Positions 35,955 to 64,000 are shown, numbered from the stretch's first letter. The stretch: 64,000 bases of DNA from Patescibacteria group bacterium (GCA_049322215.1 JBMORU010000001.1:1046143-1110142), one strand, 5' to 3'. The notes: generated by a model from the sequence alone, not told the origin. Made by a program: numbers and translations.

Positions 35955-36009
35955 ACCTATTAAGGCATTGACACAAACTGCTGTAAAATAAATAATGCCT
36001 AGTACGTAT

Positions 36010-36085
36010 AGGGGTGTAGCTCAGCTGGTAGAGCACTGGTCTCCAAAACCAGGTGTCGGGGGTTCAAGTCCCTCCACCCCTGCCA
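36010..36085 (+). tRNA. tRNA-Trp (anticodon CCA)
   Basis: Acceptor AGGGGTG/CACCCCT, anticodon stem CTGGT/ACCAG with loop CTCCAAA, T-arm GGGGG-TTCAAGT-CCCTC, encoded CCA. Confidence 0.9.
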
Positions 36086-46460: not shown

Positions 46461-47078
46461 ATGACAGAAAATAATAACGAAACAACTGAACAAAATAGTA
46501 ATAATGTCATGGGCCTAGAAGAAGGCATGATAGTTATTTCTGAAGATGCTCCTAAAAGAGCAAAATGGTTTGTGGTACATACGTACTCAGGACATGAGAA
46601 AAAAGTAGCCGTTACTCTAAAACAAAGAGCAGAATCATCAGGATTTGTTGATAAGATATTTAAAATACTTATACCTACTCAACAAAAAATTGTTATAAGT
46701 GAAGGAAAAAAGAGAAAAGTTGATGAAAGACTATTTCCAGGTTATATTATCGTTCAAATGATAATGGGCGATGATGCATGGCATTTAGTTAGGTCAACAA
46801 GAGGAGTAACAGGATTTGTAGGTACAGGAACAACACCTACCCCACTTCCTGAATCAGAAGTTAAAACACTGATGAAATTCATGAAAATGGAAGCTCCTAA
46901 ATTTGAAGCTAAGTTTTCGATTGGAGATGCTGTTAGAATAACAGAAGGCCCATTTGCCGATTTCTTAGGCAAAGTAGATGAAGTAAATGATGAACAAGGA
47001 AAAGTGAAAGTATTAGTTTCAGTATTTGGCAGAGAAACTCCAGTTGAGTTAGATTTTGTACAAGTTAAAAGTATATAA
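46461..47078 (+). CDS. nusG: transcription termination/antitermination factor NusG
   Basis: NGN domain '[14 protein letters not shown]'; KOW '[18 protein letters not shown]'. Confidence 0.9.
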
Positions 47079-47080
47079 AA

Positions 47081-47515
47081 ATGGCAAAAAAAGTTAAAAA
47101 AGTAAAAGGAATAATTAAATTAAACATTCAAGCAGGGAAAGCCACGCCAGCACCTCCTGTAGGACCTTCATTAGGTCAGTACGGAGTTCCATTGATGGAT
47201 TTTTGTAAAGAGTTTAATGCTAGAACAGCTGATATGGGGGATGACATTATTCCTGTTGTTTTAACAGTATATGAAGACAGATCTTTTAAATTTATTACTA
47301 AAACGCCAGTAACGTCAAGATTAATATTAAAAGCACTAGGTATAAAAAAAGGTTCTGCCGTGCCAAATAAAGATAAAGTAGGTAAACTTTCAAGAGTACA
47401 GGCAGAAGAAATAGCAAATATAAAAATGAAAGATTTAAACGCTAGATCCATGGATGAAGCTGTGAGAATTATTGCAGGTACAGCAAGAGCTATGGGTATA
47501 GATACGGAGGAATAA
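47081..47515 (+). CDS. rplK: 50S ribosomal protein L11
   Basis: '[25 protein letters not shown]' L11 signature. Confidence 0.9.
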
Positions 47516-47522
47516 ACCACAA

Positions 47523-48173
47523 ATGAGTAAAGAAAAAACACCATTAAACGTAATAGAAGCAATTGAAAAAGTAAAGAAAACATGTAAATGTAACTTTGAC
47601 TCCACTATAGAAGTACATTTAAATGTGGCTTTAGACCCTAAAAAACAAGATCAGCAAATAAGAGTTACTACTTCCCTACCTTATGGTACAGGTAAAACAA
47701 AAAAAGTAGCTGTTATGGCGGCTAAACCTGTAAAAAATGCAGATATAGAACTTTCTGAAGATGATTTAAAAAAGATTGAATCCGGAACATTAAAGCCTGG
47801 AACTGATTTTGATGCAGTTGTTGTTGAACCAAGTTACATGCCTAAAATAGCAAGAGTAGCTAAAATTTTAGGACCAAAGGGAATGATGCCTAATCCAAAG
47901 AGTGGTACAGTAACTGAAAATGTAGAACAAACTGTTAATGAAATAAAAAAAGGTAAAGTTGAAATAAAGATGGAACAAACAACACCGATAATACACACAA
48001 TAATTGGTAAAAAAAGCTTTGATACTAATTCTTTAGCTGAAAACTTAAAGGAAGTTATTACCACTTTAAGACAAAACAAGCCACAAAAAGCTAAACCTGA
48101 CTGGTTGAAAGAATGTTATATCTCATCTTCAATGAGCCCTTCAGTATTGGTAGATTTATCCACAGTAAAGTAG
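47523..48173 (+). CDS. rplA: 50S ribosomal protein L1
   Basis: L1 fold motifs 'FDSTIEVHLNV', 'KILGPKGMMPNPK'. Confidence 0.9.
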   Translation: MSKEKTPLNVIEAIEKVKKTCKCNFDSTIEVHLNVALDPKKQDQQIRVTTSLPYGTGKTKKVAVMAAKPVKNADIELSEDDLKKIESGTLKPGTDFDAVVVEPSYMPKIARVAKILGPKGMMPNPKSGTVTENVEQTVNEIKKGKVEIKMEQTTPIIHTIIGKKSFDTNSLAENLKEVITTLRQNKPQKAKPDWLKECYISSSMSPSVLVDLSTVK

Positions 48174-50759
<2,586 letters not shown>

Positions 50760-50760
50760 T

Positions 50761-52251
50761 TTACGAACTCCTCCCTAAAAGAAAGTCCATTTTTGGCGCA
50801 CATTTCCCTAAAAAGTCATTAAAATCCTTTGCGGAAGTAATTAACGCATCTACTTCTTGTTTGTAAGACGAATTTTCCTCGTAAGCCTTTATTACTCTTT
50901 CCAAATCGCTCCTCATTTTGCTTTTACCATCAGCAGACCAAATTCCTAACCAAATTAGTGTATATAAAGTAATTTGTAAGTTTAAAGGTAAAACTCTATT
51001 CATATGCTGGCCAAAAAAAGCTAATAACTTATCTCCCATATTTAAAGTTGTAGTTATACCCTGATTAAGTTCAGCACCAAAGTGCACGAAACTCTGAGTT
51101 TTTTCATATAATGTCAGGAAGCTACTGAGCTCCCTATTTATTCCCCAACGTAAAGGTGTTTGAGTTTGTCTACCTACACGAGTAACAGATAAAAAGTAAT
51201 TTATTGCGGGACGACGACCTTGAGTAAACAGATCTTTATCAAAAAACACATGTCCATCGGTTATAGACATTAGGTTGGTTTGAATAAATCCCGATATATC
51301 ACCCTCAACCGTTTCGGCAACAGGAAGGCATGTAATAGAAACAGACCCATTTTCATGTTTGAAATTACCTGCTCGTTCTAATAAGCGGGCATGCGCGTAA
51401 AAGATATCGCCAGGATATGAATTTCGTCCTGGAAATCTTTTAGCAATCAAACTAACTTCTCGATAAAACTTTGCATGTGTTGATAAATCGTCTAAAATTA
51501 GTAACACATCTTGCCCTTTATCTCTAAAATATTCAGCTAATGTCATAGCTGCATAGGGAGTAATATGAATCAAACCCAAAGAATCAGATGCCCTTGAAGC
51601 AATAATAATGGTTTTATCTTTAATGTTTTGTTTTTCCAAAAAATTTTCGACTTTTTTTATGTCAATTTGCTTTTTTCCTATACCCGCATATATACAAAGA
51701 CTTCCCTGATTTACCTGACTTAAAATTGTTTGCAGTATGAAAGCTGTTTTTCCAATTTTCCTATCACCTATTATTAACTCACGTTGCCCTTTTCCTAAAG
51801 GTATCATTAAATCTACAAGGCTAACGCCGGTTTCCAAAGGCTGCGCAATTTTTACTCTCGTATCTATACCTGTAGGACTAGTGTTTATATTTCTATAATT
51901 CTCACTTTTTGCCAAAGGCTTATTTGGATAAATAGAATGACCCAATGGGTTAATAGAAGCACCCAGTAAATGATCTCCAACAGGTATTTGAAGTACTTTG
52001 TCTGTACGCGAAGCTTTAGTACCTACAAGTAAAGGTATTTCGGAAAAAACCAATACTTCAACATGGTTGTTATTTACGGATTGAACTTCACCAAACTCAC
52101 CACTTTCAAATAATATAAGCTCACTTGGCTTGGCTTTAGGTAAACCTTCAAGATAAACAATTGGATGACTAACAATTTCTACATAGCCCACCTCATTAAA
52201 TGTATCTAAATTAGTATTAAATTGATTCTTTAAGTCTTTTGATGTATTCAT
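50761..52251 (-). CDS. atpA: ATP synthase F1 alpha subunit
   Basis: 'GDRKIGKTAF' P-loop and alpha-family C-terminal domain. Confidence 0.9.
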   Translation of the reverse strand: MNTSKDLKNQFNTNLDTFNEVGYVEIVSHPIVYLEGLPKAKPSELILFESGEFGEVQSVNNNHVEVLVFSEIPLLVGTKASRTDKVLQIPVGDHLLGASINPLGHSIYPNKPLAKSENYRNINTSPTGIDTRVKIAQPLETGVSLVDLMIPLGKGQRELIIGDRKIGKTAFILQTILSQVNQGSLCIYAGIGKKQIDIKKVENFLEKQNIKDKTIIIASRASDSLGLIHITPYAAMTLAEYFRDKGQDVLLILDDLSTHAKFYREVSLIAKRFPGRNSYPGDIFYAHARLLERAGNFKHENGSVSITCLPVAETVEGDISGFIQTNLMSITDGHVFFDKDLFTQGRRPAINYFLSVTRVGRQTQTPLRWGINRELSSFLTLYEKTQSFVHFGAELNQGITTTLNMGDKLLAFFGQHMNRVLPLNLQITLYTLIWLGIWSADGKSKMRSDLERVIKAYEENSSYKQEVDALITSAKDFNDFLGKCAPKMDFLLGRSS

Positions 52252-52711
52252 TATCAGTTGTAAATAAATTATCTAATTTCTTTTTAACAGACATATCCAG
52301 GTACATGCCGTTATACGACATAATCAACCCGCCTAGTATTTCAGGATCTTCTGTAAAAGAAACGTAATACAAAGATCCTATGTTGCTCTTTATCCAATTC
52401 GACACACTGTTACATATAGGTTCAGCTTTTATAGCCACTGTGACTTTGACATCAGTCATTTCAGACAGCAATGAAGTTATCCCCTGCAAAAATGTACGCT
52501 TTTCGCGTATTGTAGCTAATTTTAAACCGTTCTCTTGCATATAACTTGTTATGGCCTCTTTAGCGAATAAATACTGTTTATTTGACATTAATTGACTAAC
52601 GTATTCATAGGATAAATTAGGCATATTTAGGTTTAGAGTATCCACCAAGTCTTTTATTTCCTTAAAATCCTTGTTTGTCTTAATAATAGAAGTTAAAGGG
52701 GTTTTATTCAT
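52217..52711 (-). CDS. atpH: ATP synthase delta (OSCP) subunit
   Basis: Position; C-terminal 'GGLIMSYNGMYLDMSVKKKLDNL' OSCP pattern. Confidence 0.65.
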   Translation of the reverse strand: MNKTPLTSIIKTNKDFKEIKDLVDTLNLNMPNLSYEYVSQLMSNKQYLFAKEAITSYMQENGLKLATIREKRTFLQGITSLLSEMTDVKVTVAIKAEPICNSVSNWIKSNIGSLYYVSFTEDPEILGGLIMSYNGMYLDMSVKKKLDNLFTTDNEYIKRLKESI

Positions 52712-53520
52712 GCCAAACCTTTAAACTTATTGTCTTTTTTCGCTTCTTCGAGCGCACGAATTATTAAATCTTGATGCTCCTCCACATTTAGAGCAGCACC
52801 TAATGTTTTTACTGAAACGTCATATATTATTGACAAAATAGAATCATCAATTTTAGACAGCTTTTCTTTTTCATAATCTTCTATGATTTTTCTGGTTTCG
52901 TCATAGTCGGCAGCCAGCATAGTTGACACCGCATTTTCTCTCTCTACTGTGGTATCACGCAAGTGTTCTTTAAATTCTTTGGTATCTTTTTCTAGCTCTT
53001 TCTCTATTTGTAAAGTATCTTCATGCAAAATATTCTTAATTGAAGCTAGTTCATCTTTTATATCTCCTTCGACTTTTAAGGATAGGTTTTTAATAGAAGC
53101 CACACCAAGTTCTTTTTCACTTTTAAATACGTCCTTGTAGCTTTCAAGTAACTTTGACATGTATATAGATAAAACATCCTCCTGTTTCTTTGAAAGTTCG
53201 GCCAGGTGGTTTTCTAAGGAGATTTTGGTGGCATTGTCTATAGTAACTGAGGAATCTAAAATTTCTCCTGCTTCTTTTGTTGCGCTTTTTATGATATTTA
53301 AGGCAGAACGGTTTGCGGTCGCCAAAATATCCCTAGCATCGTTATACGCTTCTTGTCTCACATTTTCCGTCTTTTTGGCGTCTTCAATTTCTACAAAATT
53401 TAGCCACTTACCAAAGAACGCGTAAAACGAGTTGAATATTAATACAATAGTAACAAGAACTACAAAAATAAATGTTATACTTAATATTATTAAAAATGGA
53501 TCTAAGGGCAGTTGATACAT
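52708..53520 (-). CDS. atpF: ATP synthase Fo b subunit (long form, 270 aa)
   Basis: Single N-terminal TM then long charged coiled coil; operon position. Confidence 0.65.
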   Translation of the reverse strand: MYQLPLDPFLIILSITFIFVVLVTIVLIFNSFYAFFGKWLNFVEIEDAKKTENVRQEAYNDARDILATANRSALNIIKSATKEAGEILDSSVTIDNATKISLENHLAELSKKQEDVLSIYMSKLLESYKDVFKSEKELGVASIKNLSLKVEGDIKDELASIKNILHEDTLQIEKELEKDTKEFKEHLRDTTVERENAVSTMLAADYDETRKIIEDYEKEKLSKIDDSILSIIYDVSVKTLGAALNVEEHQDLIIRALEEAKKDNKFKGLA

Positions 53521-53555
53521 ACTAAATAAATTTTCTCACATGTAAGAATAAGTTT

Positions 53556-54341
<786 letters not shown>

Positions 54342-55071
54342 TTACATTAAATATGGGTACTAGGCTATATATGCTCCAGATTTTTCAGCGACGTACACAA
54401 ATAGTGTATTAATATGGGTTGTGTAGTTAAACTTTACTAAACACTGTGTTTATAACAGTTGGTAAGGTTTAATTATTAAAATAGGGATGCTAAATTTAGA
54501 AGCCTTTTGTAAATAACTCAGTTTGAAATAATATAGTAAGTTGAAAAAAATTTAAATAAGGCTACAACTTTGTTTTGCATAAATTTTATTCACAAAAACC
54601 AGGAACATTTTGTATAAATTTCGTAAACTAAAATTTAGGCCATTAAAAGTGGCAAATATTACCAAGAGAATTTTACAAAAAACTTTTTAAACATTTTTCT
54701 TTTTTGAATGCAGCTTTCAAGTTTAAATGGGTGCGACTTGCCTTTTAGTGTAAAAATAACCCTACTTTCTAGAAAATTAAATAGAAACCAACTTGTACTC
54801 TCTGCAAAAACTATAGGACTCAAACTTTACTCAAAAATCAAGCGTCAATTTGACAGCCCTGTCAAGGCAAAAAAGACATAAAATTGCTGGCTATTACAGA
54901 TGGTCTTATTTTCATATGAAATATTATGACAACAACGGGTTGTTAAAACTTTGTTTTTTCTTTAAATAAAAACAAAAAATAACGAGTAAAGTATTGACAC
55001 GCACATACCAAGAACGTACCATTAATGTAACCTTACCAATAGTGATGGTACAAGGTTTTGCGAAGGTTTAT

Positions 55072-58000
55072 ATGAGTCATGACCCTGCCCAGAGAAATAA
55101 AGAAATAATTAACAACTCTATCTCCCCCAGAGCTTCTGAGGGATTATCTGTTTCTAAGGCAGCAAAAATCTTAAAAATCTCCCCTTCTACACTTCGCAGA
55201 TTAGAACAAAACGGAAAAATTAAATCTACTAGAGCTGCAAATGGTTATAGGTCTTTCAGCATTGACGAAATTAGAAAACTAAAAGTACAACTAGATAAGC
55301 AGGATTTACTAGAAAAACCAGAATTAAGAGTTTTAGAGAAACAATTAAAAACTAATAATAATATAAAACCTTCGCAAAAAAATATACCAGTTACTGAAGA
55401 AATAAAAACAGGCCAATCGTATAAACAAGTAATAAAACCCAAATACCAACTAAAAAATTTTAATAAGCTAAGTAACGCACTACAAACAGCAACAATAACC
55501 TTAATACTAGTAGTAATATTAGGGGCATTTGGACTAAAGGGAACAGACACAATCAAGTATAAAACTGTTACAAATAGCGTAAAAGGCTTACTAACTACGA
55601 CAAATACGTCGGAAAGCCTTTTGGATTCTGACAATACAGAAGACTCAGCAGTATTAGCCGAAAGAAGTCAAAATCCATTGTGGACTTTTAACATAAATGT
55701 TCCTAGTACGTTTAGACAAGATGTTCAAATAACCCAGAATTTACAAATTGATCAAAATGCAAATATAGACGGAATTGTAACGACACCTAATGTAACTTTT
55801 ACAGGTACAGGAACTATCAACCAATTAGATGCTATTGACGACATAACCGAAACCACATTGGAAAATGCTTTAGACATAAACGGTGATGTTATAGGAATAG
55901 GATTAAATAATGTGACAATAGTTGACGGTGCTATTACTGTTAACAAATTGGCTGACGTTTTGGAATACGAGGGTACGCTTAGTATTGAAGGGGAATTTTT
56001 ATTAGGAGGAGATTCTGGCAGCGAAGGTGATATATTGACATCGGGTGGCAGCGGGATTCCTCAATGGGTAGCCCCATCAGAAATTAATGCTGGCCAAGTA
56101 GATGGATTAAGTGGGGATCAATTTTTAAGATCAGACACATCCGATGAATTTACATCAGGAACTTTGTCATTATCTAACGGCACATTTCTTGATTTAGGCA
56201 CTATTGATCACACTTCCACCTCCCCACAAGGTATAAGATTGCCACAATCAACAGCTTTTACTGCACCAAGCAGTGGTGAGGGATATATAGCATGGGATAC
56301 AGCCTCCAACACGCTTGTTGTATATGATGGATCTTCATGGAGCTCAATTCAAGGCCTATTTACAAATTCAGGAGATCTGACATATCTATCAGAAACTACC
56401 GACAACTTAACTATAGGAGGAACGACATCTTTAGCTAAATTGGGAATAAGTGGAGATGCAGATGAAATTCAATTATTAGTACGAGGAAATTCAACCCAAA
56501 CAACCGACTTAGTTGTATTTGAACAAAGTGATGGAACAAATGTATTTTCAGTAAATAATAATGGAACCATAACAATACCCTCTGGACAGGATTTAGTAAT
56601 AGGTTCAATTGGATTGGGAGACACGGCTGCCTCTACTACTTCGGGAGCTAACTTAATAGGTGTTTATACAGATATATTTACAAATATATCCCCTGTAGGG
56701 TCTGATTTGCAGTCAGTATTAGAAACAATTGACTCCTCTATTGGTTCAGGATCGTCAAGATGGTCTACTACATCAGGAACACTACACCCAAACACATTAG
56801 CTGAAAACTTGGCAGTCGGTGGCACTAGTCCTACTGCTGCTCCATTTGGAATTAACGTAAGTAGCAATACTGTATATATTGGTGATGCAGTAACTGCCGG
56901 AAATACAACATTAACATTTAAATCTAACTCAGGAGCATCTACAGGAAACCTAATTTATAACACAAGTGATCAGTTTCAATTTTCGGGTGGAAATGTAGTG
57001 GTAGATGGTCAACTAATAACAGGTTCTTCAGTTATAAATCTTACAACAGCCACAGGCTACTTAGACGCCGATGCTATTCAATTACTAAACCTAGGTACAG
57101 GCTCTACGGCATCCTCATCGGGTTTAGAAGTAAGTTCGGATAGAATAGGTTTGCTGCAAGGATGTGCAAATGGCGAGGTATTAAAATGGAATGAAGCTTC
57201 GGGTCTATGGCAGTGTGCTACAGATTCTGGTGCATCAAGTGCTGTTGTTCTAGTAGAGGAAAACGATGTTTCAGTAGGCACAAATGTAGGAACTTTAGAT
57301 TTCATTAACGTGTTTTCTTTAAACGAAAGTCCTTCTGGTGAAGTAAATATAGATATAGCTGATAATGCATTAAACTTTACAGAACTTGAAAGTGCCTTAA
57401 CTTTAGATACTGATACATCTATAAACTTTTATACAGGGGCAGCCGATGCTAACTTAAGATACTATAATTCAAACGATGCTACAGAATTATTATTTATAGA
57501 CGGCAATAATGGAAGAATAGGTATAGGTAATACTTCCCCATCTGCTTTACTAGGTATAGGAAGTACAAATCAATTTACAGTAAATTCATCTGGAGCAATT
57601 ACCGCAGCAACCGGAATTACTTCAAGTGGAAATATAACTTTCAGCGGATTATCAACTGATGGCGTAGTTACTGTTTCTTCTGGATTACTAGATAGTGAAG
57701 CCCAATTAGCAATCGCTCGTGGCGGAACAAATTCTACCGCTACACCAACTGCGGGGGCTATCTCCTACGGTACAGGAACTGCTTATGGGTTTAGTACAGC
57801 AGGTACCTCAGGACAATTACTACAAAGCAACGGTACAGGTGCACCTACTTGGGTTGATTCTGATACCGTAGGTATTAACTATTGGGATCGAACAGGTACT
57901 TTAGTTACTCCTTTGACAATTACTGATAATATAGCCACATTAGGTAGCATAGGAGTTGGAACAACCAACCCTGCTGCTGCTTTATCCGTAGGCGCAACAA

Positions 58001-61000
58001 GTGAATTTAGAGTTGACTCAAACGGCAACATCACAAGAATAAACGATGTGGCATACTCATTCCCCGCTTCTCAGGCTGCTGCACCTAATTATGTGCTAAC
58101 AAATGACGGAAGCGGAAATTTAACATGGCAGTCTGTTAGCGGTGTTGGAGGTATTACAGGTTCAGGAAGTACCGGACAATTAACTTACTGGAACGCTTCA
58201 AATTCTTTAACAGGTAACTTTAATCTATTTTGGAATAACAGCAACAGTCGTTTAGGAATAGGTACTAGCGCACCAGCCACAGCCTTAGATATAAATAATG
58301 GAAACATTACGTTATCTGACAATTACTGGCTTGGTTTAGGCACAGCTGCAGGAAGAATTGAATTCGACAATCAAGCTACCGACGAAATTAACTTTTTAGG
58401 TGCTAATGTTGGTATAGGAACTTCTTCCCCATCGTCATTGCTAAGTGTGGGTGCTACAAACCAATTTACAGTAAATGGAAGTGGAGCTATTACTGCCGCA
58501 ACCGGTATAACCTCAAGTGGTAACATAACTTTCAGCGGTTTATCAACCGACGGTGTAGTTACGGTTTCATCAGGTTTGTTAGGCAGTGAAGCACAACTAG
58601 CAATCGCTCGTGGTGGAACAAACTCTACAGCTACACCAACTGCTGGTGCTATTGCTTATGGAACAGGAACTGCCTATGGATTTAGTTCGGCAGGGACTTC
58701 TGGCCAGTTACTGCAAAGTAATGGTACGGGGGCTCCAACTTGGATAAACGCAGCAAGCGTAGGCACTAACTACTGGGATAGAACGGGAACACTTGTTACT
58801 CCTCTGACAATCACTGACAACGTAGCTACACTTGGCAGCATAGGTATAGGCACCACCAATCCTGCAGCAGCACTAAGCGTAGGAGGTAGCAGCGAATTCA
58901 GAGTAGACACAAACGGCAACATTACAAGAATAAACGATGTAGCATATTCATTCCCTGCCTCACAAGCAGCCTCTGACAATTACGTTTTAACAAATGATGG
59001 AAGCGGTAACTTAACTTGGGAATCTGTTAGCGGCGTTGGGGGTTTAACAGGCTCTGGGAATACGGGACAATTAACATACTGGAATGCAGCTAACTCAATT
59101 GCTGGTAATTTTAACTTCTTTTTAGATACAACAAATAATAGATTGGGTATTGGTACTTCTGCTCCTACATCAGCACTTGACATAAATAATGGAAATATAA
59201 CACTATCTGACAATTACTGGCTTGGTTTAGGCACAGCTGCAGGAAGAATCGAATTCGATAACCAAGCCACTGATGAAATTAACTTTTTAGGAGCCAACGT
59301 TGGTATAGGAACTTCTTCTCCTTCAGCTTTGCTAAGCGTGGGTGCAGGTAGTCAATTTACAGTAAATGGTAGCGGTGCCGTTACCGCAGCAACCGGGATT
59401 ACCTCAAGCGGTAACATAACTTTCAGTGGTTTATCAACCGATGGTGTAGTAACTGTTTCGTCTGGGTTACTTGGAAGTGAAGCCCAACTTGCAACTGCTC
59501 GTGGCGGAACAAATTCTATCGCTACACCAACTGCGGGGGCTATCTCGTACGGTACAGGAACTGCCTACAACTTCAGCTCAGCAGGCACTTCAGGACAATT
59601 ACTACAAAGTAACGGTACTGGGGCACCAACTTGGATAAATTCGGCAAGTGTAGGAACAAATTACTGGGATCGTACAGGTACGCTTGTTACCCCTCTGACA
59701 ATTAGCGATGACTTAGCCTCCTTAGGCAACGTGGGCATAGGCTTAACCAACCCAATAGGAGCATTGCATGTAACCGGCGATGAAGTAAGAATTGGTGACG
59801 CAGGTACTATTAACTTTGCTACAGCTGATGGCGACTTGTACGTAGAAGATGCTTTAGAAGTAGACGGAAGCACATACTTAAGCACACTATATTTAGCAGG
59901 TACACAAGTAACATCAACTGCTGCAGAACTTAACCTACTCGACGGCAGTACCGCAGTTTTAGGCGGATTAGTATTTGGAAACGGCACATATTTAACTCAA
60001 GATGCTGCAAATATATTCTGGGATGATTCAACTAACAGACTTGGTATTGGTACAACAGGGCCTCAAGCTGCTTTATCGGTTGGCGCCACAAGTGAGTTTA
60101 GAGTTGATTCAACCGGTAATGTTACTAGAATAAACGATATTGCTTACTCGTTCCCTGCCTCACAAGCAGGCGCTTCAAATTACGTACTTACCAATGACGG
60201 AAGTGGTAACTTAACCTGGGAGTCTGTAAGTGGTGTAGGGGGCTTAACCGGCTCCGGTAGTACTGGACAAGCTACATTCTGGAACGGAACAAATGCTTTA
60301 ACAGGGAATTTCAATTATTTCTGGGATAACAATACTAATAGATTAGGCATTGGAACAAGCGCCCCACAAGCATCTTTAAGTGTTGGCAGCAGTAGTGAAT
60401 TCAGGGTCGATGCAAGTGGCAATGTAACTAGAATAAATGATGTTGTTTATTCCTTCCCCGCATCACAAGCAACTTCAGGTAACTACGTTTTAACAAATGA
60501 TGGTAGCGGCAACTTAACTTGGGAATCTGTTAGCGGTGTTGGAGGTTTAACTGGTTCTGGTAACACAGGTCAACTAACATATTGGAATGGCACTAACGCT
60601 TTAACAGGTAACTTTAATTTGTTCTGGGATACCAGTACAAACAGATTAGGTATAGGCACCTCGGCACCTCAAGCTTCTTTAAGTATAGGAAGTGCTAGTG
60701 AATTTAGAGTTGATTCAAACGGTAATGTTACAAGAATCAACGATGTAGCCTACTCTTTCCCCGCTTCGCAAGCAGCTTCTGACAATTACGTTTTAACAAA
60801 CGACGGCAGCGGTAACTTAACATGGGAATCTGTTAGCGGCGTTGGTGGAATAACCGGAGCAGGCAGCAATGGGCAGCTTACTTACTGGAACGGAGCCAAT
60901 TCACTAACAGGAAACTTTGACTTATTTTTAGATTCTAATAATAGCCGCCTAGGAATAGGCACTTCAGCACCTACTACAGCTTTAGATATAAATAATGGAA

Positions 61001-64000
61001 ACATAACATTATCTGACAATTATTGGCTAGGTTTAGGTACTTCCGCAGGAAGAATCGAATTTGATAACCAAGCTACCGATGAAATTAACTTTTTAGACGC
61101 TAATGTGGGCATTGGCACTTCTTCTCCTTCAGCTCTGTTAAGTGTTGGTGCAACTAATCAGTTTACAATAAATGGAAGTGGAGCAATAACTGCAGCTGCA
61201 GGAATTACTTCAAGTGGAAATATAACTTTCAGCGGTTTATCAACCGACGGTGTAGTTACGGTTTCATCAGGTTTGTTAGGCAGTGAAGCACAACTAGCAA
61301 TCGCTCGTGGTGGAACAAACTCTACCGCTACTCCTACTGCTGGTGCTATTGCTTACGGTACTGGTACTGCTTATGGATTTTCTAGCGCCGGTACTTCAGG
61401 TCAGTTATTACAAAGTAACGGTACTGGGGCACCAACTTGGGTAAACGCAGCAAGCGTAGGCACTAACTACTGGGATAGAACTGGTACTTTAGTTACTCCT
61501 TTGACAATTGCTGACAATATTGCCACATTAGGTAGCATAGGAGTTGGAACAACCAACCCAGCTGCTGCTTTATCCGTAGGCGCAGCAAGTGAATTTAGAG
61601 TTGACTCAAACGGTAACATTACAAGAATAAACGATGTAGCCTACTCTTTCCCTGCTTCGCAAGCAGCTGCTGATAATTATGTTTTAACAAATGATGGAAG
61701 TGGTAACCTAACTTGGGAATCTGTTAGTGGCGTTGGGGGTTTAACAGGCTCTGGAAGCAATGGGCAGTTGACATATTGGAATGGAGCCAATTCTTTAACC
61801 GGTAACTTCAATTTATTTTTAGATACTTCAAATACTCGGTTAGGTATTGGAACAAGCGCGCCAACAACTGCCTTAGATATAAATAATGGAAACATTACGT
61901 TATCTGACAATTATTGGCTAGGTTTAGGCACAGCTGCAGGAAGAATTGAATTTGACAACCAAGCTACCGATGAAATTAACTTTTTAGGTGCTAATGTTGG
62001 TATAGGAACTTCTTCCCCATCCGCTTTGTTAAGTGTGGGTGCAAGCAGTCAATTTACAGTAAACGGTAGTGGTGCAATTACCGCTGCTACAGGGATTACC
62101 TCAAGCGGTAACATAACTTTCAGCGGTTTATCAACCGATGGTGTGGTTACAGTTTCATCAGGCTTACTTGGAAGCGAAGCGCAACTAGCAATCGCTCGTG
62201 GTGGAACAAATTCTACCGCTACACCAACTGCTGGTGCTATTTCTTACGGTACTGGTACTGCTTATGGATTTTCTAGCGCCGGTACTTCAGGTCAGTTATT
62301 ACAAAGTAACGGTACTGGGGCACCAACTTGGGTAAACGCTTCAAGTGTAGGTACCAACTACTGGGATCGAACAGGTACTCTAGTTACTCCTTTAACAATT
62401 ACTGATAATATTGCAACTCTTGGAAATATAGGTATTGGTACAACAAATCCAGCCGCTGTTTTAAGTGTAGGTTCAACAAGTGAATTTAGAGTTGACTCAA
62501 ATGGCAACATCACAAGAATAAACGATGTAGCATACTCTTTCCCTGCTTCTCAGGCTGCCGCTGATAATTACGTTTTAACAAACGACGGAAGCGGTAATTT
62601 AACTTGGGAATCTGTAAGCGGTGTGGGCGGAATAACTGGATCTGGAAACAACGGGCAACTTACTTTTTGGAATGGTACTAACTCACTAAGTGGCTCTTAC
62701 GGACTATTTTTAGATACTTCAAATAACTATTTAGGAATTGGAACAAGTGCACCAAATACAGCGCTTGATATAAACAACGGAAATATAACGCTATCTGACA
62801 ATTACTGGTTAGGTTTAGGCACAGCTGCAGGAAGAGTTGAATTCGACAATCAAGCTACCGACGAAATTAACTTTTTAGGTGCTAATGTTGGTATAGGAAC
62901 TTCTTCTCCTTCAGCTTTGCTAAGCGTGGGCGCAGGTAACCAATTTACAGTAAATGGTAGCGGTGCAATTACTGCTGCAACAGGTATTACATCAAGTGGA
63001 AATATTACATTTAGTGGACTATCAACCGATGGTGTAGTTACAGTTTCATCAGGCTTACTAGGAAGTGAAGCACAACTTGCAATTGCTCGTGGCGGAACAA
63101 ATTCTACCGCTACTCCTACTGCTGGCGCTATTGCTTACGGTACTGGTACTGCCTACAACTTTAGCTCTGCAGGAACCTCAGGCCAACTATTACAAAGCAA
63201 CGGTACTGGAGCACCTACTTGGGTAAACTCCGACACTGTTGGTATAAACTACTGGGATAGAACTGGTACTTTAGTTACTCCTTTGACAATTACTGATAAT
63301 ATTGCAACTCTTGGAAATATAGGTATTGGTACAACAAATCCAGCTGCTGCGTTATCGGTTGGTTCAACAAGTGAATTTAGAGTTGACTCAAACGGCAACA
63401 TTACAAGAATAAACGATGTAGCCTACTCTTTCCCTGCTTCGCAAGCAGCTTCTGACAATTATGTTTTAACAAATGATGGTAGTGGTAACTTAACCTGGGA
63501 ATCTGTTAGTGGCGTTGGGGGTTTAACAGGCTCTGGTAGTACAGGACAATTAACATACTGGAACGGTGCGAATTCTTTAACAGGTGACTTCAACTTTTTC
63601 CTAGACTCAAACAATGCCAGACTCGGTATTGGTACTTCAGCACCTACTACCGCTTTAGATATAAATAATGGAAATATAACACTATCTGACAATTACTGGT
63701 TAGGTTTAGGAAGTGCTGCTGGAAGAATTGAATTTGATAACCAGGCTACCGACGAAATTAACTTTTTAGGCGCTAATGTGGGTATTGGCACTTCTTCTCC
63801 TTCAGCTCTATTAAGTGTTGGTGCGGGTAATCAATTTACTGTCAACGGTAGCGGAGCCATTACTGCCGCCACAGGTATAAACTCGAGCGGAAATATTACA
63901 TTTAGTGGACTTTCAACCGACGGCGTAGTTACAGTTTCTTCTGGCCTACTCGGTAGTGAGGCACAACTTGCAATTGCTCGTGGTGGAACAAACTCTACCG
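55072..64000 (+). CDS. giant membrane-anchored surface repeat protein with N-terminal MerR/excisionase-type HTH; 3' end beyond window (more than 2970 aa)
   Basis: GAAGG RBS then ATG at 55072; frame stays open to the window edge (verified at repeat anchors, codon phase 1). 'LSVSKAAKILKISPSTLRRLEQNGKI' HTH; one TM 'LQTATITLILVVILGAFGL'; then Gly/Thr/Ser/Asn-rich repeats. Minus-strand 77-aa ORFs here are antisense artefacts. Confidence 0.7.
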   Translation, partial: MSHDPAQRNKEIINNSISPRASEGLSVSKAAKILKISPSTLRRLEQNGKIKSTRAANGYRSFSIDEIRKLKVQLDKQDLLEKPELRVLEKQLKTNNNIKPSQKNIPVTEEIKTGQSYKQVIKPKYQLKNFNKLSNALQTATITLILVVILGAFGLKGTDTIKYKTVTNSVKGLLTTTNTSESLLDSDNTEDSAVLAERSQNPLWTFNINVPSTFRQDVQITQNLQIDQNANIDGIVTTPNVTFTGTGTINQLDAIDDITETTLENALDINGDVIGIGLNNVTIVDGAITVNKLADVLEYEGTLSIEGEFLLGGDSGSEGDILTSGGSGIPQWVAPSEINAGQVDGLSGDQFLRSDTSDEFTSGTLSLSNGTFLDLGTIDHTSTSPQGIRLPQSTAFTAPSSGEGYIAWDTASNTLVVYDGSSWSSIQGLFTNSGDLTYLSETTDNLTIGGTTSLAKLGISGDADEIQLLVRGNSTQTTDLVVFEQSDGTNVFSVNNNGTITIPSGQDLVIGSIGLGDTAASTTSGANLIGVYTDIFTNISPVGSDLQSVLETIDSSIGSGSSRWSTTSGTLHPNTLAENLAVGGTSPTAAPFGINVSSNTVYIGDAVTAGNTTLTFKSNSGASTGNLIYNTSDQFQFSGGNVVVDGQLITGSSVINLTTATGYLDADAIQLLNLGTGSTASSSGLEVSSDRIGLLQGCANGEVLKWNEASGLWQCATDSGASSAVVLVEENDVSVGTNVGTLDFINVFSLNESPSGEVNIDIADNALNFTELESALTLDTDTSINFYTGAADANLRYYNSNDATELLFIDGNNGRIGIGNTSPSALLGIGSTNQFTVNSSGAITAATGITSSGNITFSGLSTDGVVTVSSGLLDSEAQLAIARGGTNSTATPTAGAISYGTGTAYGFSTAGTSGQLLQSNGTGAPTWVDSDTVGINYWDRTGTLVTPLTITDNIATLGSIGVGTTNPAAALSVGATSEFRVDSNGNITRINDVAYSFPASQAAAPNYVLTNDGSGNLTWQSVSGVGGITGSGSTGQLTYWNASNSLTGNFNLFWNNSNSRLGIGTSAPATALDINNGNITLSDNYWLGLGTAAGRIEFDNQATDEINFLGANVGIGTSSPSSLLSVGATNQFTVNGSGAITAATGITSSGNITFSGLSTDGVVTVSSGLLGSEAQLAIARGGTNSTATPTAGAIAYGTGTAYGFSSAGTSGQLLQSNGTGAPTWINAASVGTNYWDRTGTLVTPLTITDNVATLGSIGIGTTNPAAALSVGGSSEFRVDTNGNITRINDVAYSFPASQAASDNYVLTNDGSGNLTWESVSGVGGLTGSGNTGQLTYWNAANSIAGNFNFFLDTTNNRLGIGTSAPTSALDINNGNITLSDNYWLGLGTAAGRIEFDNQATDEINFLGANVGIGTSSPSALLSVGAGSQFTVNGSGAVTAATGITSSGNITFSGLSTDGVVTVSSGLLGSEAQLATARGGTNSIATPTAGAISYGTGTAYNFSSAGTSGQLLQSNGTGAPTWINSASVGTNYWDRTGTLVTPLTISDDLASLGNVGIGLTNPIGALHVTGDEVRIGDAGTINFATADGDLYVEDALEVDGSTYLSTLYLAGTQVTSTAAELNLLDGSTAVLGGLVFGNGTYLTQDAANIFWDDSTNRLGIGTTGPQAALSVGATSEFRVDSTGNVTRINDIAYSFPASQAGASNYVLTNDGSGNLTWESVSGVGGLTGSGSTGQATFWNGTNALTGNFNYFWDNNTNRLGIGTSAPQASLSVGSSSEFRVDASGNVTRINDVVYSFPASQATSGNYVLTNDGSGNLTWESVSGVGGLTGSGNTGQLTYWNGTNALTGNFNLFWDTSTNRLGIGTSAPQASLSIGSASEFRVDSNGNVTRINDVAYSFPASQAASDNYVLTNDGSGNLTWESVSGVGGITGAGSNGQLTYWNGANSLTGNFDLFLDSNNSRLGIGTSAPTTALDINNGNITLSDNYWLGLGTSAGRIEFDNQATDEINFLDANVGIGTSSPSALLSVGATNQFTINGSGAITAAAGITSSGNITFSGLSTDGVVTVSSGLLGSEAQLAIARGGTNSTATPTAGAIAYGTGTAYGFSSAGTSGQLLQSNGTGAPTWVNAASVGTNYWDRTGTLVTPLTIADNIATLGSIGVGTTNPAAALSVGAASEFRVDSNGNITRINDVAYSFPASQAAADNYVLTNDGSGNLTWESVSGVGGLTGSGSNGQLTYWNGANSLTGNFNLFLDTSNTRLGIGTSAPTTALDINNGNITLSDNYWLGLGTAAGRIEFDNQATDEINFLGANVGIGTSSPSALLSVGASSQFTVNGSGAITAATGITSSGNITFSGLSTDGVVTVSSGLLGSEAQLAIARGGTNSTATPTAGAISYGTGTAYGFSSAGTSGQLLQSNGTGAPTWVNASSVGTNYWDRTGTLVTPLTITDNIATLGNIGIGTTNPAAVLSVGSTSEFRVDSNGNITRINDVAYSFPASQAAADNYVLTNDGSGNLTWESVSGVGGITGSGNNGQLTFWNGTNSLSGSYGLFLDTSNNYLGIGTSAPNTALDINNGNITLSDNYWLGLGTAAGRVEFDNQATDEINFLGANVGIGTSSPSALLSVGAGNQFTVNGSGAITAATGITSSGNITFSGLSTDGVVTVSSGLLGSEAQLAIARGGTNSTATPTAGAIAYGTGTAYNFSSAGTSGQLLQSNGTGAPTWVNSDTVGINYWDRTGTLVTPLTITDNIATLGNIGIGTTNPAAALSVGSTSEFRVDSNGNITRINDVAYSFPASQAASDNYVLTNDGSGNLTWESVSGVGGLTGSGSTGQLTYWNGANSLTGDFNFFLDSNNARLGIGTSAPTTALDINNGNITLSDNYWLGLGSAAGRIEFDNQATDEINFLGANVGIGTSSPSALLSVGAGNQFTVNGSGAITAATGINSSGNITFSGLSTDGVVTVSSGLLGSEAQLAIARGGTNST
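57520..64000 (+). repeat. coding tandem repeat array, unit about 891 bp (297 aa), at least 7 copies, about 90% nt identity, continuing past window end
   Basis: Anchor 'GACAATTACTGG' recurs at 58318, 59209, 61015, 61905, 62796, 63688 (spacings 891, 1806, 890, 891, 892). An irregular unit with unique 59700-60030 insert lies between copies 2 and 3. Confidence 0.85.

What the first reader, a model, noticed from the sequence alone, without database searches (positions are those of the whole stretch)
55072..64000. Giant ORF (more than 2970 aa, still open at window end): cytoplasmic MerR/excisionase-type HTH, single TM helix, then kilobases of extracellular repeats
The N-terminal 75 aa carry a clean HTH_17/MerR-like motif (LSVSKAAKILKISPSTLRRLEQNGKI...YRSFSIDEIRKLK). 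A Lys-rich linker and one predicted TM helix (about aa 150-172) follow. The rest is Gly/Thr/Ser/Asn-rich beta-type repeats with phage-tail-fibre-like composition. A DNA-binding domain tethered to a multi-thousand-residue surface protein is an unusual architecture. It could be a membrane-tethered one-component regulator that couples surface contact to transcription, or a domain captured from a mobile element. It is the largest gene in the window and shares a 740-bp AT-rich control region divergently with the ATP synthase operon.
Basis: partly seen in the sequence, partly recalled or inferred. Interest (0 to 1): 0.8.

Follow-up and report, generated by a model that had tools for sequence, protein, structure and literature searches.

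The report
Membrane-anchored giant fibre with cytoplasmic HTH
This is the first two-thirds of a roughly 4,500-residue surface fibre of an ultrasmall (CPR/WWE3-like) bacterium, built like the prey-recognition fibres of predatory Bdellovibrio but, unusually, tied through one membrane helix to a DNA-binding domain inside the cell; the same design recurs in many related proteins from public genomes and metagenomes and I found no description of it.

Summary
Window 55072-64000 is one uninterrupted ORF of 2,976 codons. Residues 25-72 score above Pfam's MerR threshold. One TM helix lies at residues 137-157 (not 150-172). The body is a 297-aa super-repeat.

The fusion is not an accident. An exhaustive profile search found many proteins of 526-6,147 aa with the same order: one or two MerR-type HTHs, a variable basic linker, one TM helix, a conserved juxtamembrane block, then a long Gly/Thr/Ser/Asn-rich body. 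Complete members carry a phage-type intramolecular-chaperone domain (Peptidase_S74 or G2) and a conserved C-terminal module.

The stalk repeat matches solved Bdellovibrio MAT (mosaic adhesive trimer) fibres through their capping-loop motif, which occurs 22 times in the window.

The gene is positionally conserved, divergent from the ATP-synthase cluster, in WWE3-like genomes. Its codon usage is native, so capture from a mobile element is not supported.

BldC DNA-contact positions are retained across the family, so DNA binding at the membrane is likely. Its purpose (regulation, nucleoid tethering or other) is unresolved, and no operator was found.

Verdict: new variant of a known kind; interest 0.7.

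The parts
54994..55022 (+). Sigma-70-like promoter of the fibre gene: TTGACA (54994-54999), 17-nt spacer, TACCAT (55017-55022)
   Evidence: Consensus scan gives 10 of 12 matches. The TATTGACA-17-CTATCATT block is conserved in orthologous intergenic regions. The number of promoter-like hits in this region is not above chance, so the support comes from conservation.
55027..55061 (+). Predicted 5'-UTR stem-loop (AACCTTACC ... GGTA-CAAGGTT), ending just before the Shine-Dalgarno GAAGG (55062-55066)
   Evidence: MFE is -8.2 kcal/mol in the window and -8 to -12 in orthologues. In the RNAalifold consensus, 7 of 11 pairs show compensatory changes, but the consensus energy is weak at -1.1. Tentative.
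55072..64000 (+). Coding sequence of the giant protein, residues 1-2976, cut by the window end
   Evidence: No stop codon in 2,976 codons. Identical to the public protein P0121, which continues to 3,894 aa and is probably also truncated.
55144..55287 (+). Cytoplasmic MerR/BldC/excisionase-type winged helix-turn-helix (aa 25-72)
   Evidence: Pfam MerR 37.7 bits against a cut-off of 28.2. AlphaFold gives pLDDT 70-81 with helix-helix-beta-hairpin-helix topology. Foldseek top hits are GlnR, BldC (rmsd 1.5 A over 48 aa), RacA and Xis. BldC DNA-contact positions are conserved.
55288..55479 (+). Lys-rich cytoplasmic linker (aa 73-136); not conserved in the family
   Evidence: aa 76-136 are 20% Lys with K+R 13 and D+E 6. 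The HTH-to-TM distance across the family is 49-232 aa with no conserved columns. Low pLDDT.
55480..55542 (+). Single transmembrane helix (aa 137-157), inferred N-in / C-out
   Evidence: It is the only Kyte-Doolittle peak above 1.6 in 2,976 residues. AlphaFold predicts a helix at 128-152. Net charge is +15 on the N-terminal side and -154 on the C-terminal side.
55648..55713 (+). Conserved juxtamembrane block AVLAERSQNPLWTFNINVPSTF (aa 193-214), a family signature at the fibre base
   Evidence: L195, P211 and F214 are at least 90% conserved in alignment A2. The pattern VL[AG]-x(9-13)-h-x-h-N-h-P-x-x-F occurs in 76 of 86 members, a median of 28 aa after the TM helix.
55543..57516 (+). Non-repeated proximal ectodomain (aa 158-815), containing the only two Cys (698, 715)
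   Evidence: No Pfam, PHROG or NCBIfam family matched. The first ~200 residues align with family members.
57517..59298 (+). Super-repeats R1 and R2 (each A144-B101-C52, 297 aa)
   Evidence: Each module begins with the capping-loop motif [LIV]G[IV]GTxxPxxxL.
59299..61104 (+). Irregular middle of the array: A module, a unique 103-aa D module, three B modules, one C module
61105..63777 (+). Super-repeats R3, R4 and R5 (297 aa each)
   Evidence: The profile of these units matches Bdellovibrio MAT fibres 8OND (E 1.1e-7) and 8OJN (E 4e-5).
63778..64000 (+). Start of the next A module, cut by the window end
   Evidence: P0121 shows the array continuing.
48174..54332 (-). Divergently transcribed ATP-synthase gene cluster (epsilon, beta, gamma, alpha, delta, then 270-aa and 258-aa ORFs). 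It is the conserved neighbour, not part of the protein.
   Evidence: Pfam families on record. Synteny is conserved in 13 of 15 reference loci plus L007/L008.

Best explanation
The ORF encodes the N-terminal two-thirds of a bitopic membrane protein of about 4,500 residues from a WWE3-like CPR bacterium.

Shown:
- An N-terminal MerR/BldC-type winged HTH, a basic unconserved linker and one TM helix.
- An acidic, nearly lysine-free body. Its 22 modules in the window are delimited by the capping-loop motif of Bdellovibrio MAT trimeric beta-helix fibres.
- This order of parts is conserved in a large family. Complete members end in a phage-type intramolecular chaperone (Peptidase_S74 or G2), a coiled-coil-like stretch and a conserved C-terminal module.

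Inferred mechanism:
1. The HTH stays in the cytoplasm and the TM helix acts as a signal anchor. The rest of the protein is exported.
2. The C-terminal chaperone nucleates a homotrimer, as in phage tailspikes and MAT fibres.
3. This produces a fibre about 150-250 nm long, roughly one cell width, which binds surface structures of the host cell on which the episymbiont lives.
4. Trimerisation also holds three HTH domains together just under the membrane. This HTH type lacks a dimerisation helix and, in BldC, binds DNA only as cooperative multimers on direct repeats. The clustered HTHs therefore most likely bind DNA at the fibre base.

My preferred reading is that this links the number or assembly state of fibres to gene expression or to local nucleoid attachment. 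Which of the two applies is not resolved.
For: Architecture and topology:
-.

Family-wide conservation:
- The HTH - TM - juxtamembrane block - fibre order was found by an exhaustive HMMER search (2,800 hits at E<=1e-3, 358 at E<=1e-10).
- It was surveyed.
- 86 of the 150 listed hits show both HTH and TM. Sizes range from 526 to 6,147 aa.

CPR origin and positional orthology:
- 15 loci, all from WWE3 or from MAGs labelled Saccharibacteria.
- 13 of them share the order M50-nusG-rplKA-atp <-> fibre.

Fibre nature:
- The repeat profile hits MAT fibres 8OND and 8OJN through the motif that PMC10769870 calls the capping loop of the trimeric beta-helix.
- Peptidase_S74 scores 44.8 bits (cut-off 22) in the complete orthologue L022.
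- Peptidase_S74 is also on record for P0180.
- Peptidase_G2 scores 30.9 bits (cut-off 25) in P0146.
- The G2-like region is homologous in the closest relatives P0164 and P0123.
- NCBI names P0180 'tail fiber domain-containing protein'.

DNA-binding competence:
- The fold matches DNA-bound GlnR, BldC, RacA and Xis.
- BldC contact positions are kept in the family: Arg30 as R in 44 of 51, Thr27 as T in 45 of 51, Arg47 as R in 50 of 51.
- Some members carry 2 to 8 tandem HTHs before the TM helix.

The gene is native: codon usage matches the neighbours.
Against: - No DNA target was identified. The shared intergenic region has no convincing direct-repeat or palindromic operator.
- Trimerisation is inferred by homology only.
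- The C-terminus of this particular protein, where the chaperone domain should be, lies outside the window and outside P0121.
- Residues of the BldC head-to-tail interface are only partly conserved.
- The HTH could serve protein binding, as in RodZ, or simply fix topology.
- The local positive-inside contrast around the TM helix holds in only 32 of 51 members. The overall charge asymmetry is strong in all.
- Host binding is an analogy with MAT fibres, not a result.
Confidence: 0.6

Rival explanations
1. Contact-sensing membrane-tethered transcription factor. Binding of the fibre to a host surface, or fibre assembly, changes the activity of the HTH. The change would come either directly or after juxtamembrane cleavage and intramembrane proteolysis that frees the HTH to regulate genes.
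For: - The HTH keeps DNA-contact residues.
- It is tethered by a single TM helix.
- A nearly invariant block lies 23-37 aa outside the membrane and could be a processing site.
- A Peptidase_M50 (site-2 protease family) gene lies in the conserved neighbourhood.
- Precedents exist. MYRF uses an S74 tailspike domain to trimerise and release a DNA-binding domain (PMC3742443, PMC8094900). From general knowledge, ToxR/CadC-type regulators bind DNA while membrane-bound.
Against: - No operator was found.
- There is no sensor domain.
- Ectodomains vary from ~380 to ~6,000 aa and look structural.
- The linker is unconserved and 49-232 aa long, a poor conduit for allostery.
- Three paralogues in tandem each carry their own HTH.
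- The M50 gene sits within a housekeeping gene block (nusG, rplK/rplA, atp), so its proximity may simply reflect conserved housekeeping synteny.
- In MYRF the S74 domain and the DNA-binding domain are on the same side of the membrane. Here they are on opposite sides.
Confidence: 0.2
2. Architectural tether. The HTH binds chromosomal DNA with little or no regulatory role and physically couples the nucleoid to the fibre base. The nearest precedent is RacA, a MerR-like winged HTH that anchors the B. subtilis chromosome to the cell pole.
For: - RacA and Xis, both architectural MerR-like winged-HTH proteins, are among the best structural matches, and BldC-family literature groups them.
- Tandem arrays of 2 to 13 copies of this HTH exist.
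- Cells of this phylum are 100-300 nm wide (PMC11665869), so the nucleoid is always within reach of a 60-230-aa linker.
Against: - No repeated binding motif was identified.
- There is no obvious benefit of tethering DNA to an adhesin.
- The window holds only one copy of the gene. How many copies the whole genome carries is unknown.
Confidence: 0.15
3. The HTH does not bind DNA. It is a cytoplasmic protein-interaction or topology-fixing module. RodZ is a precedent: its N-terminal HTH binds MreB, followed by a TM helix and an external domain. Alternatively it may be simply a fast-folding basic plug that forces N-in insertion of a very long exported chain.
For: - The HTH-TM-external order is the same as in RodZ (general knowledge).
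- There is a weak HTH_25 match (E 0.0017).
- The cytoplasmic part is strongly basic in all members.
Against: - The HTH_25 score of 18.5 is below its cut-off of 24.6, while MerR is above its cut-off.
- The positions conserved are exactly those that contact DNA in BldC, including the base-reading Arg.
- A topology plug would not need them.
Confidence: 0.12
4. Artefact or foreign DNA. The fusion results from misassembly or a missed frameshift, or the gene is a prophage tail-fibre gene that captured an excisionase HTH.
For: - Short-read contigs break inside these genes.
- The HTH resembles phage excisionases (PHROG 66, E 9e-6).
- S74 and G2 domains are phage hallmarks.
Against: - The junction is identical in a second assembly.
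- The same fusion is seen in many independent genomes and metagenomes.
- The chromosomal position is conserved.
- Codon usage is native.
- Among the neighbouring genes with Pfam families on record there are none typical of phages.
- IMG/VR and annotated phages hold no match to the module or the stalk.
- Only the order and number of repeat units remains open to assembly error.
Confidence: 0.02

Closest known systems
Bdellovibrio bacteriovorus MAT (mosaic adhesive trimer) fibres, e.g. Bd2133 (8OND) and Bd3182 (8OJN/8ONB/8ONC); PMC10769870
   Same: - The stalk is built of modules bounded by the same capping-loop motif (xGxGTxxPxxxL). The profile match is E 1.1e-7 and 4e-5.
- Relatives fall into S74-terminated and non-S74 subtypes.
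- Both are displayed on the surface of a bacterium that lives at the expense of other bacteria.
- Both are mosaic and fast-evolving.
   Different: - MAT proteins are ~600-1,100 aa. They have a cleavable signal peptide followed by a conserved ~130-aa beta-rich N-terminal domain that is presumed to bind an unknown surface element.
- This protein is ~4,500 aa and has no signal peptide.
- It is anchored by a TM helix and carries a cytoplasmic DNA-binding domain.
- The MAT paper does not mention HTH, transmembrane or CPR proteins.
BldC (Streptomyces), a minimal MerR-like winged HTH; PDB 6AMA/6AMK; PMC5859096
   Same: - It is the best solved sequence match to the HTH (E 0.0035, ungapped over 59 residues), and the fold matches at rmsd 1.5 A.
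- It lacks the MerR coiled-coil dimerisation helix and effector domain.
- DNA-contact residues are conserved.
   Different: - BldC is a free 68-residue protein.
- NCBIfam HTH_BldC scores only 19.5 against a cut-off of 77.
- Head-to-tail interface residues are only partly kept.
- Here oligomerisation would be imposed by the fibre, not by DNA.
MYRF (myelin regulatory factor), a eukaryotic membrane-bound transcription factor with a phage tailspike S74/ICA domain; PMC3742443, PMC8094900
   Same: - One polypeptide combines a DNA-binding domain, a transmembrane helix and a tailspike-type trimerising chaperone module.
- Trimerisation is what confers DNA binding in MYRF.
   Different: - MYRF order is DBD - S74 - TM, with both on the cytosolic side, and self-cleavage releases the DBD.
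- Here the order is DBD - TM - fibre - S74/G2, so chaperone cleavage would act outside the cell and could not free the HTH.
- The DBD type differs: Ndt80-like (from general knowledge) in MYRF, MerR-like here.
ToxR/CadC/TcpP-type membrane-bound one-component regulators (general knowledge)
   Same: N-terminal cytoplasmic winged-HTH DNA-binding domain, one TM helix and an external C-terminal part.
   Different: - Those use an OmpR-type winged HTH and a small periplasmic sensor domain of ~100-250 aa.
- Here the HTH is MerR-type and the external part is a multi-thousand-residue structural fibre.
RacA (B. subtilis), a MerR-like winged HTH that anchors the chromosome to the pole; PDB 5I44
   Same: MerR-like winged HTH used for tethering DNA to the envelope. 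It is a structural match.
   Different: RacA is soluble, dimerises through a coiled coil and reaches the membrane through DivIVA (general knowledge). It has no TM helix or external domain.

Membership tests
MerR superfamily winged-HTH domain (Pfam PF00376 / PF13411) | Profile score at or above Pfam's gathering cut-off | tested here: met
   PF00376 37.7 bits against 28.2; PF13411 26.0 against 21.6.
MerR superfamily winged-HTH domain (Pfam PF00376 / PF13411) | Topology alpha1-alpha2 (HTH) - beta-hairpin wing - alpha3 | tested here: met
   AlphaFold model: H27-33, H38-46, E52-54, E60-62, H64-, with pLDDT 70-81. Foldseek hits are exclusively MerR-like winged-HTH domains.
Classical MerR-family transcriptional regulator | Long coiled-coil dimerisation helix followed by a C-terminal effector-binding domain | tested here: not met
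   MerR_1 matches only profile positions 2-48 of 69. The sequence after aa 78 is unconserved and of low confidence, and it leads into a TM helix.
Classical MerR-family transcriptional regulator | Palindromic operator inside a promoter with an over-long 19-20-bp spacer | tested here: not met
   The gene's own conserved promoter has a 17-nt spacer, and no palindrome lies between its hexamers. Other promoters of the genome could not be examined.
BldC family | NCBIfam HTH_BldC (NF033787) score at or above cut-off; small stand-alone protein | tested here: not met
   19.5 bits against a cut-off of 77. The domain is the N-terminus of a giant protein.
BldC family | DNA-contact residues (Thr27, Arg30, Trp31, Arg47, Arg48) present | tested here: met
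   Window T40, R43, L44, R60, S61. Family majority T, R, W, R, R (contacts taken from PMC5859096).
BldC family | Cooperative head-to-tail binding to DNA direct repeats | not testable with these tools
   Needs EMSA or structures. No convincing direct repeats were found in the 739-bp intergenic region.
MAT (mosaic adhesive trimer) fibre superfamily | Stalk of beta-helix modules bounded by the capping-loop motif | tested here: met
   22 motif copies in the window. The repeat profile aligns this motif to Bd2133 and to Bd3182 residues RVGVGTTAPTSALH and FFGINTAAPAYNIH. These fit the capping loops R656-H669 and F752-H765 of PMC10769870.
MAT (mosaic adhesive trimer) fibre superfamily | Homotrimeric intertwined fibre | not testable with these tools
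   Only monomer prediction was available, and it was poor (pLDDT 54).
MAT (mosaic adhesive trimer) fibre superfamily | Signal peptide followed by the conserved ~130-aa beta-rich N-terminal domain | tested here: not met
   The N-terminus is HTH + linker + TM at aa 137-157 with no N-terminal signal peptide. Homology of aa 190-330 to the MAT N-domain was not tested because no sequence was available.
MAT (mosaic adhesive trimer) fibre superfamily | C-terminal S74 chaperone/protease or an alternative tip domain | tested here: inconclusive
   The C-terminus lies beyond the window and beyond P0121. It is met in relatives: S74 in L022 (44.8 bits) and P0180; G2 in P0146; a G2-like region in P0164 and P0123.
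ToxR-like membrane-bound one-component regulators | OmpR-type winged HTH, single TM helix, small periplasmic sensor domain | tested here: not met
   The HTH is MerR-type. A single TM helix is present. The external part is a repetitive fibre with no sensor family detected.
RodZ | Xre-type HTH (Pfam HTH_25) at or above cut-off, then a TM helix | tested here: not met
   HTH_25 scores 18.5 bits against a cut-off of 24.6.
MYRF-type self-cleaving membrane transcription factor | DBD and S74/ICA domain on the same side of the membrane, so that self-cleavage frees the DBD | tested here: not met
   The domain order in complete relatives is HTH - TM - fibre - S74/G2.

The most novel reading that the evidence does not exclude
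The family is a bacterial counterpart of MYRF/Notch-type signalling. Assembly or host engagement of a giant trimeric surface fibre would be reported to the genome by its own cytoplasmic MerR-type HTH. One route is trimer-imposed cooperative DNA binding at the membrane. Another is cleavage at the conserved juxtamembrane VLA block followed by site-2-protease release of the HTH. Either would give regulator-poor CPR episymbionts a direct 'I am attached to a host' switch.
Probability: 0.15. Interest if true: 0.9.

Novelty: new variant of a known kind. Interest (0 to 1): 0.7.

Why it matters
How ultrasmall CPR/Patescibacteria recognise and hold on to their host cells is largely unknown beyond type IV pili and unnamed adhesins (PMC10633639, PMC11665869).

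This family supplies a concrete, widespread candidate. It is a cell-length fibre of the same construction as the prey-recognition fibres of Bdellovibrio. It is encoded at a conserved chromosomal position and takes more than 1% of a ~1-Mb genome.

Its permanent link to a DNA-binding domain across the membrane is something I found described nowhere for bacterial adhesins. The link gives a testable handle on whether attachment and gene expression, or nucleoid organisation, are coupled in these organisms.

Practically, these genes break short-read assemblies. They are annotated inconsistently as 'hypothetical', 'excisionase family DNA binding protein' or 'tail fiber domain-containing protein', so the family is easy to miss.

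Tried and rejected
- A word-indexed homology search with the N-terminal 230 aa found nothing. Repeating it with a 21-sequence alignment was swamped by generic MerR words and gave only 2 hits. The exhaustive profile search was what revealed the family.
- Tandem Repeats Finder saw nothing because the 891-nt period exceeds its limit. Autocorrelation was used instead.
A 6-sequence subgroup worked.
- AlphaFold monomer of the 297-aa super-repeat gave pLDDT 54 and no fold search was warranted. The N-terminal 360-aa model was confident only for the HTH.
- No Pfam, PHROG or NCBIfam family matches the body. The only hit is a weak PHROG tail-fibre match at E 3.8e-4.
- phmmer of 2,106 aa of the body against PDB gave only noise, namely von Willebrand factor. 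The profile of the repeat was needed.
- tblastn of the repeat against 50,697 annotated phages found no match.
- The IMG/VR scan found only bare HTH matches.
- The operator search covered repeats, word enrichment and positions of TATGACAA/TGTCATA. No element has a consistent position or orientation.
- Rfam on the intergenic region gave only sub-threshold noise.
- A look-up of the contig encoding P0121 found nothing on record, so the true 3' end was not recovered.
- Ten literature searches found no description of an HTH-TM-anchored fibre. Neither of the two Patescibacteria papers queried by term mentions MerR, helix-turn-helix or tail fibres.
Full report
**1. The observation**

Window 55072-64000 (+) translates without a stop for 2,976 codons.

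Start codon. ATG 55072 is the best-supported start.
- A GAAGG Shine-Dalgarno sits 5 nt upstream.
- A TTGACA-17-TACCAT promoter-like site lies at 54994-55022.
- All 13 positional orthologues begin M-x(1-4)-[PA]AQ-x-N, as does MSHDPAQRN.
- The public gene call (P0121) starts 9 codons earlier, at 55045.

HTH, linker and TM helix.
- Pfam places a MerR HTH at residues 27-62 (37.7 bits, cut-off 28.2) and MerR_1 at 26-72 (26.0 bits, cut-off 21.6). HTH_17 is just below its threshold.
- Residues 76-136 are 20% lysine.
- The only strong hydrophobic segment in the protein is residues ~137-157. AlphaFold predicts a helix at 128-152.
- The N-terminal side carries net charge +15 and the C-terminal 2,819 residues carry -154. 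This fits an N-in, C-out orientation.

The body.
- It is rich in Gly, Thr, Ser, Ala and Asn and is almost lysine-free.
- From residue 816 it is a 297-aa super-repeat made of modules of 144, 101 and 52 residues. The middle section is irregular: A, a unique 103-aa module, three B modules, one C module.
- Copies are 77-84% identical in DNA and 87-93% in protein, and most differing codons are synonymous. The repeats are therefore old and under purifying selection. They are not collapsed duplicates.

Independent assembly.
- A Logan assembly contig is identical over 19,153 nt, including the HTH-TM-ectodomain junction.
- It stops at window position 57642, about 40 residues into the first repeat.
- The junction is reproducible. 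The repeat count and order in any short-read assembly remain a caveat.

**2. The gene continues beyond the window**

P0121 is identical to the window protein and runs to 3,894 aa. It ends without the C-terminal module typical of the family. Its last 60 residues align to residues 5442-5501 of the 6,147-aa relative P0164, which is 646 residues before that protein's end. I infer a full length of about 4,500 aa.

**3. It is a family, not a one-off**

The search.
- A profile of the first ~350 residues of the window protein and a WWE3 relative (P0014) was searched against 1.84 billion representatives.
- It found 2,800 proteins at E<=1e-3 and 358 at E<=1e-10.

Architecture among the 150 best hits.
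- 86 show both the HTH motif and a TM helix.
- They have one or two MerR-type HTH motifs at residues ~17-90, then a single TM helix at ~80-220.
- The linker is unconserved, 49-232 aa.
- Most have the block VL[AG]-x(9-13)-h-x-h-N-h-P-x-x-F, a median of 28 residues beyond the membrane (76 of 86 members).
- Total sizes range from 526 to 6,147 aa.
- Many complete members end in a conserved 'F[DN]WW[IV][IV]' module.

Variation and context.
- Cytoplasmic parts have 10-25% Lys+Arg. Ectodomains have about 2-7%.
- Some members have two HTHs. One (P0122) has eight before its TM helix.
- One complete 1.6-Mb genome has three such genes in tandem.
- Sources name these proteins 'hypothetical', 'excisionase family DNA binding protein' or 'tail fiber domain-containing protein [candidate division WWE3]'.

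**4. Organism and genomic position**

- A scan of one genome per species (GTDB) with the closer subgroup gave 15 loci. All are from candidate division WWE3 or from MAGs labelled Saccharibacteria. None is more than 36% identical in its best segment.
- In 13 of the 15, the order Peptidase_M50 - nusG - rplK/rplA - ATP-synthase cluster (minus strand) <-> fibre gene (plus strand) is preserved, at least in part. The same holds for the window and L007/L008. AtpA is only 48-62% identical across these loci.
- Most of those contigs end 0.6-4 kb into the gene.
- The gene's GC3 (0.21-0.26) and synonymous codon choice equal those of the housekeeping neighbours. Its higher overall GC comes from codon position 2, meaning amino-acid composition.
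- IMG/VR holds only two matches, both to the bare HTH. Annotated phages hold no match to the stalk.
- The gene is therefore ancestral and chromosomal in this lineage. It was not recently captured.

**5. What the ectodomain is**

- No Pfam family matches the body.
- A profile of the super-repeat matches two solved structures: Bd2133 (8OND, E 1.1e-7) and Bd3182 (8OJN/8ONB/8ONC, E 4e-5).
- These are Bdellovibrio MAT ('mosaic adhesive trimer') fibres. They are phage-tail-fibre-like homotrimers displayed on the predator surface, with S74-terminated and non-S74 subfamilies. One of them binds Proteus glycans (PMC10769870).
- The aligned segments RVGVGTTAPTSALH and FFGINTAAPAYNIH fit, in first and last residue and in length, the loops R656-H669 and F752-H765. 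That paper describes these as capping loops on the edges of the trimeric beta-helix.
- The same motif ([LIV]G[IV]GTxxPxxxL) starts each of the 22 modules in the window.

Chaperone domains in relatives.
- The complete positional orthologue in a curated WWE3 genome (L022, 1,799 aa) has Peptidase_S74 at 44.8 bits (cut-off 22). It also has a near-threshold K1-lyase_C-like end.
- P0180 also has S74.
- P0146 has Peptidase_G2 at 30.9 bits (cut-off 25).
- That G2 region is homologous to the C-terminal parts of the closest relatives, P0164 and P0123 (E 8e-12 and 2e-7).

Fibre length (inference).
- I scaled from Bd3182, where 135 aa span 60 A and 922 aa span about 550 A.
- The window part alone would then be about 110-170 nm, and the whole ectodomain about 175-260 nm.
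- That is about the width of a Patescibacteria cell, 100-300 nm (PMC11665869).
- The monomer AlphaFold model of the repeat was poor (pLDDT 54). That fits an obligate trimer but proves nothing.

**6. What the HTH is**

- The closest solved sequence is BldC (6AMA/6AMK), aligned without gaps over 59 residues.
- The AlphaFold model is confident for residues 23-78. It shows helix, helix, beta-hairpin wing, helix.
- Foldseek returns only MerR-like winged HTHs. The best superpositions are on minimal or architectural forms: BldC (rmsd 1.5 A over 48 residues), Xis, RacA and GlnR.
- There is no MerR dimerisation coiled coil or effector domain.

Residue mapping uses window residue = BldC residue + 13. 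DNA contacts are those listed in PMC5859096. The family keeps them as follows:

| BldC residue | Role | Family (of 51) | Window |
|---|---|---|---|
| Thr27 | phosphate contact | T in 45 | T40 |
| Arg30 | base-reading; R30A abolishes binding | R in 44 | R43 |
| Arg47 | wing / minor groove | R in 50 | R60 |
| Arg48 | wing / minor groove | R in 32 | S61 |
| Trp31 | phosphate / kink | W in 35 | L44 |
| Arg41 | role not specified in the passages read | R in 51 | R54 |

The head-to-tail interface residues are less conserved. DNA binding is therefore likely but inferred.

**7. The control region**

- I found no operator. Within-region repeats are short and unconvincing.
- The word TATGACAA occurs in 10 of 14 orthologous intergenic regions, against a shuffle maximum of 8. 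Its distance and orientation vary.
- What is conserved is the promoter (TATTGACA - 17 - CTATCATT) and, immediately downstream, an inverted repeat running up to the Shine-Dalgarno.
- The arms of this repeat co-vary between loci: 7 of 11 pairs show compensatory changes. The consensus energy is weak.
- It looks like a 5'-UTR hairpin of the mRNA, not a protein-binding site.

**8. Mechanism**

Shown:
- the order of parts;
- its conservation across the family;
- the MAT-type stalk motif;
- chaperone domains in relatives;
- retained DNA-contact residues;
- native chromosomal status.

Inferred:
1. The HTH stays in the cytoplasm and the TM helix anchors the chain.
2. The C-terminal chaperone nucleates a homotrimer.
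3. The fibre binds host-cell surface structures.
4. Trimerisation clusters three HTHs beneath the membrane. This would favour cooperative DNA binding of a BldC-like domain that has no dimerisation element of its own.

MYRF offers a precedent for tailspike-domain-driven trimerisation conferring DNA binding (PMC3742443, PMC8094900). In MYRF, however, both domains lie on the same side of the membrane.

Whether binding serves regulation, nucleoid attachment or neither is open. I give the signalling reading about 0.15-0.2.

**9. Novelty**

- Ten full-text searches found no description of this architecture.
- The MAT paper and two Patescibacteria papers, queried by term, do not mention it.
- Each half belongs to a known kind: a MAT/tail-fibre-like trimeric adhesin and a MerR-like winged HTH.
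- Their union across a membrane, conserved in a large CPR family, is a new variant.

Noticed in passing
window 55027-55061 (+); orthologous positions in L007, L010, L012, L014, L016, L018, L020, L022: A conserved inverted repeat lies immediately downstream of the fibre promoter and ends at the Shine-Dalgarno. Its arms co-vary between genomes, e.g. ACATTT/AAATGT and ATCAAA/TTTGAT. It is probably a 5'-UTR hairpin, either stabilising a ~14-kb mRNA or controlling translation.
   Followed up: partly
window 45259-54332 and loci L009-L022: The gene order Peptidase_M50 - nusG - rplK - rplA - ATP-synthase cluster <-> fibre gene is kept in 13 of 15 WWE3-like reference genomes, even though AtpA is only 48-62% identical.
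   Followed up: yes
window 53556-54332 (-) and 52708-53520 (-): The first two ORFs of the ATP-synthase cluster (258 and 270 aa) match no Pfam family. NCBIfam gives only weak matches: subunit-c-like at aa 190-256 (E 7e-4) and subunit-b-like (E 3e-3). No recognisable subunit a was seen in the cluster.
   Followed up: partly
window 54925-54932 and orthologous intergenic regions: The word TATGACAA/TTGTCATA is present in 10 of 14 orthologous intergenic regions, against a shuffle maximum of 8. Its distance and orientation vary. L018 has it as the palindrome TGTCATATGACA. Its meaning is unknown.
   Followed up: partly
window 54459-54469 (-) and 55031-55041 (+): The 11-mer AACCTTACCAA occurs in sense orientation upstream of both divergent genes. 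The copy near the fibre gene is the 5' arm of the UTR hairpin.
   Followed up: no
window 55543-64000 (ectodomain): The ectodomain is almost free of lysine (0.1-0.2%), as is that of relative P0164 (0.3%). Other family members have 1-6% Lys. No explanation.
   Followed up: no
proteins P0122, P0124 and many 110-250-aa hits: The same HTH type occurs in tandem arrays. P0122 has eight copies followed by a TM helix (623 aa). P0124 has thirteen copies without a TM helix (1,015 aa). There are numerous small two-HTH proteins.
   Followed up: no
L004 (GCA_965230895.1, OZ246394.1, 1.61 Mb): Three HTH-TM-fibre genes lie in tandem (4,679 aa, 2,855 aa and at least 3,874 aa). The middle one contains Kelch-type beta-propeller repeats. 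A Peptidase_M23/DUF2341/Laminin_G_3 protein lies between them.
   Followed up: no
L007/L008 24294-30080; L006 18192-19433; L002 5397-10661; L022 after 15391: In relatives a large DUF2341 and/or Laminin_G_3 protein lies downstream: directly after the fibre gene in L007/L008, and after one intervening ORF in L006 and L002. In L022 no ORF of at least 150 aa is listed after 15391, which may mean a large ORF runs off the locus end. This may be a conserved partner. The corresponding region lies beyond the window end.
   Followed up: no
window 57642: The Logan short-read contig for this genome ends here, about 40 residues into the first super-repeat. Most reference-genome contigs likewise end inside the orthologous gene. 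This family systematically fragments assemblies and is under-represented as full-length proteins.
   Followed up: yes
window 34477-36085 (+): tRNA genes: Thr(TGT), Tyr(GTA) and Thr(GGT) lie together at 34477-34764. A separate Trp(CCA) lies at 36010-36085.
   Followed up: no
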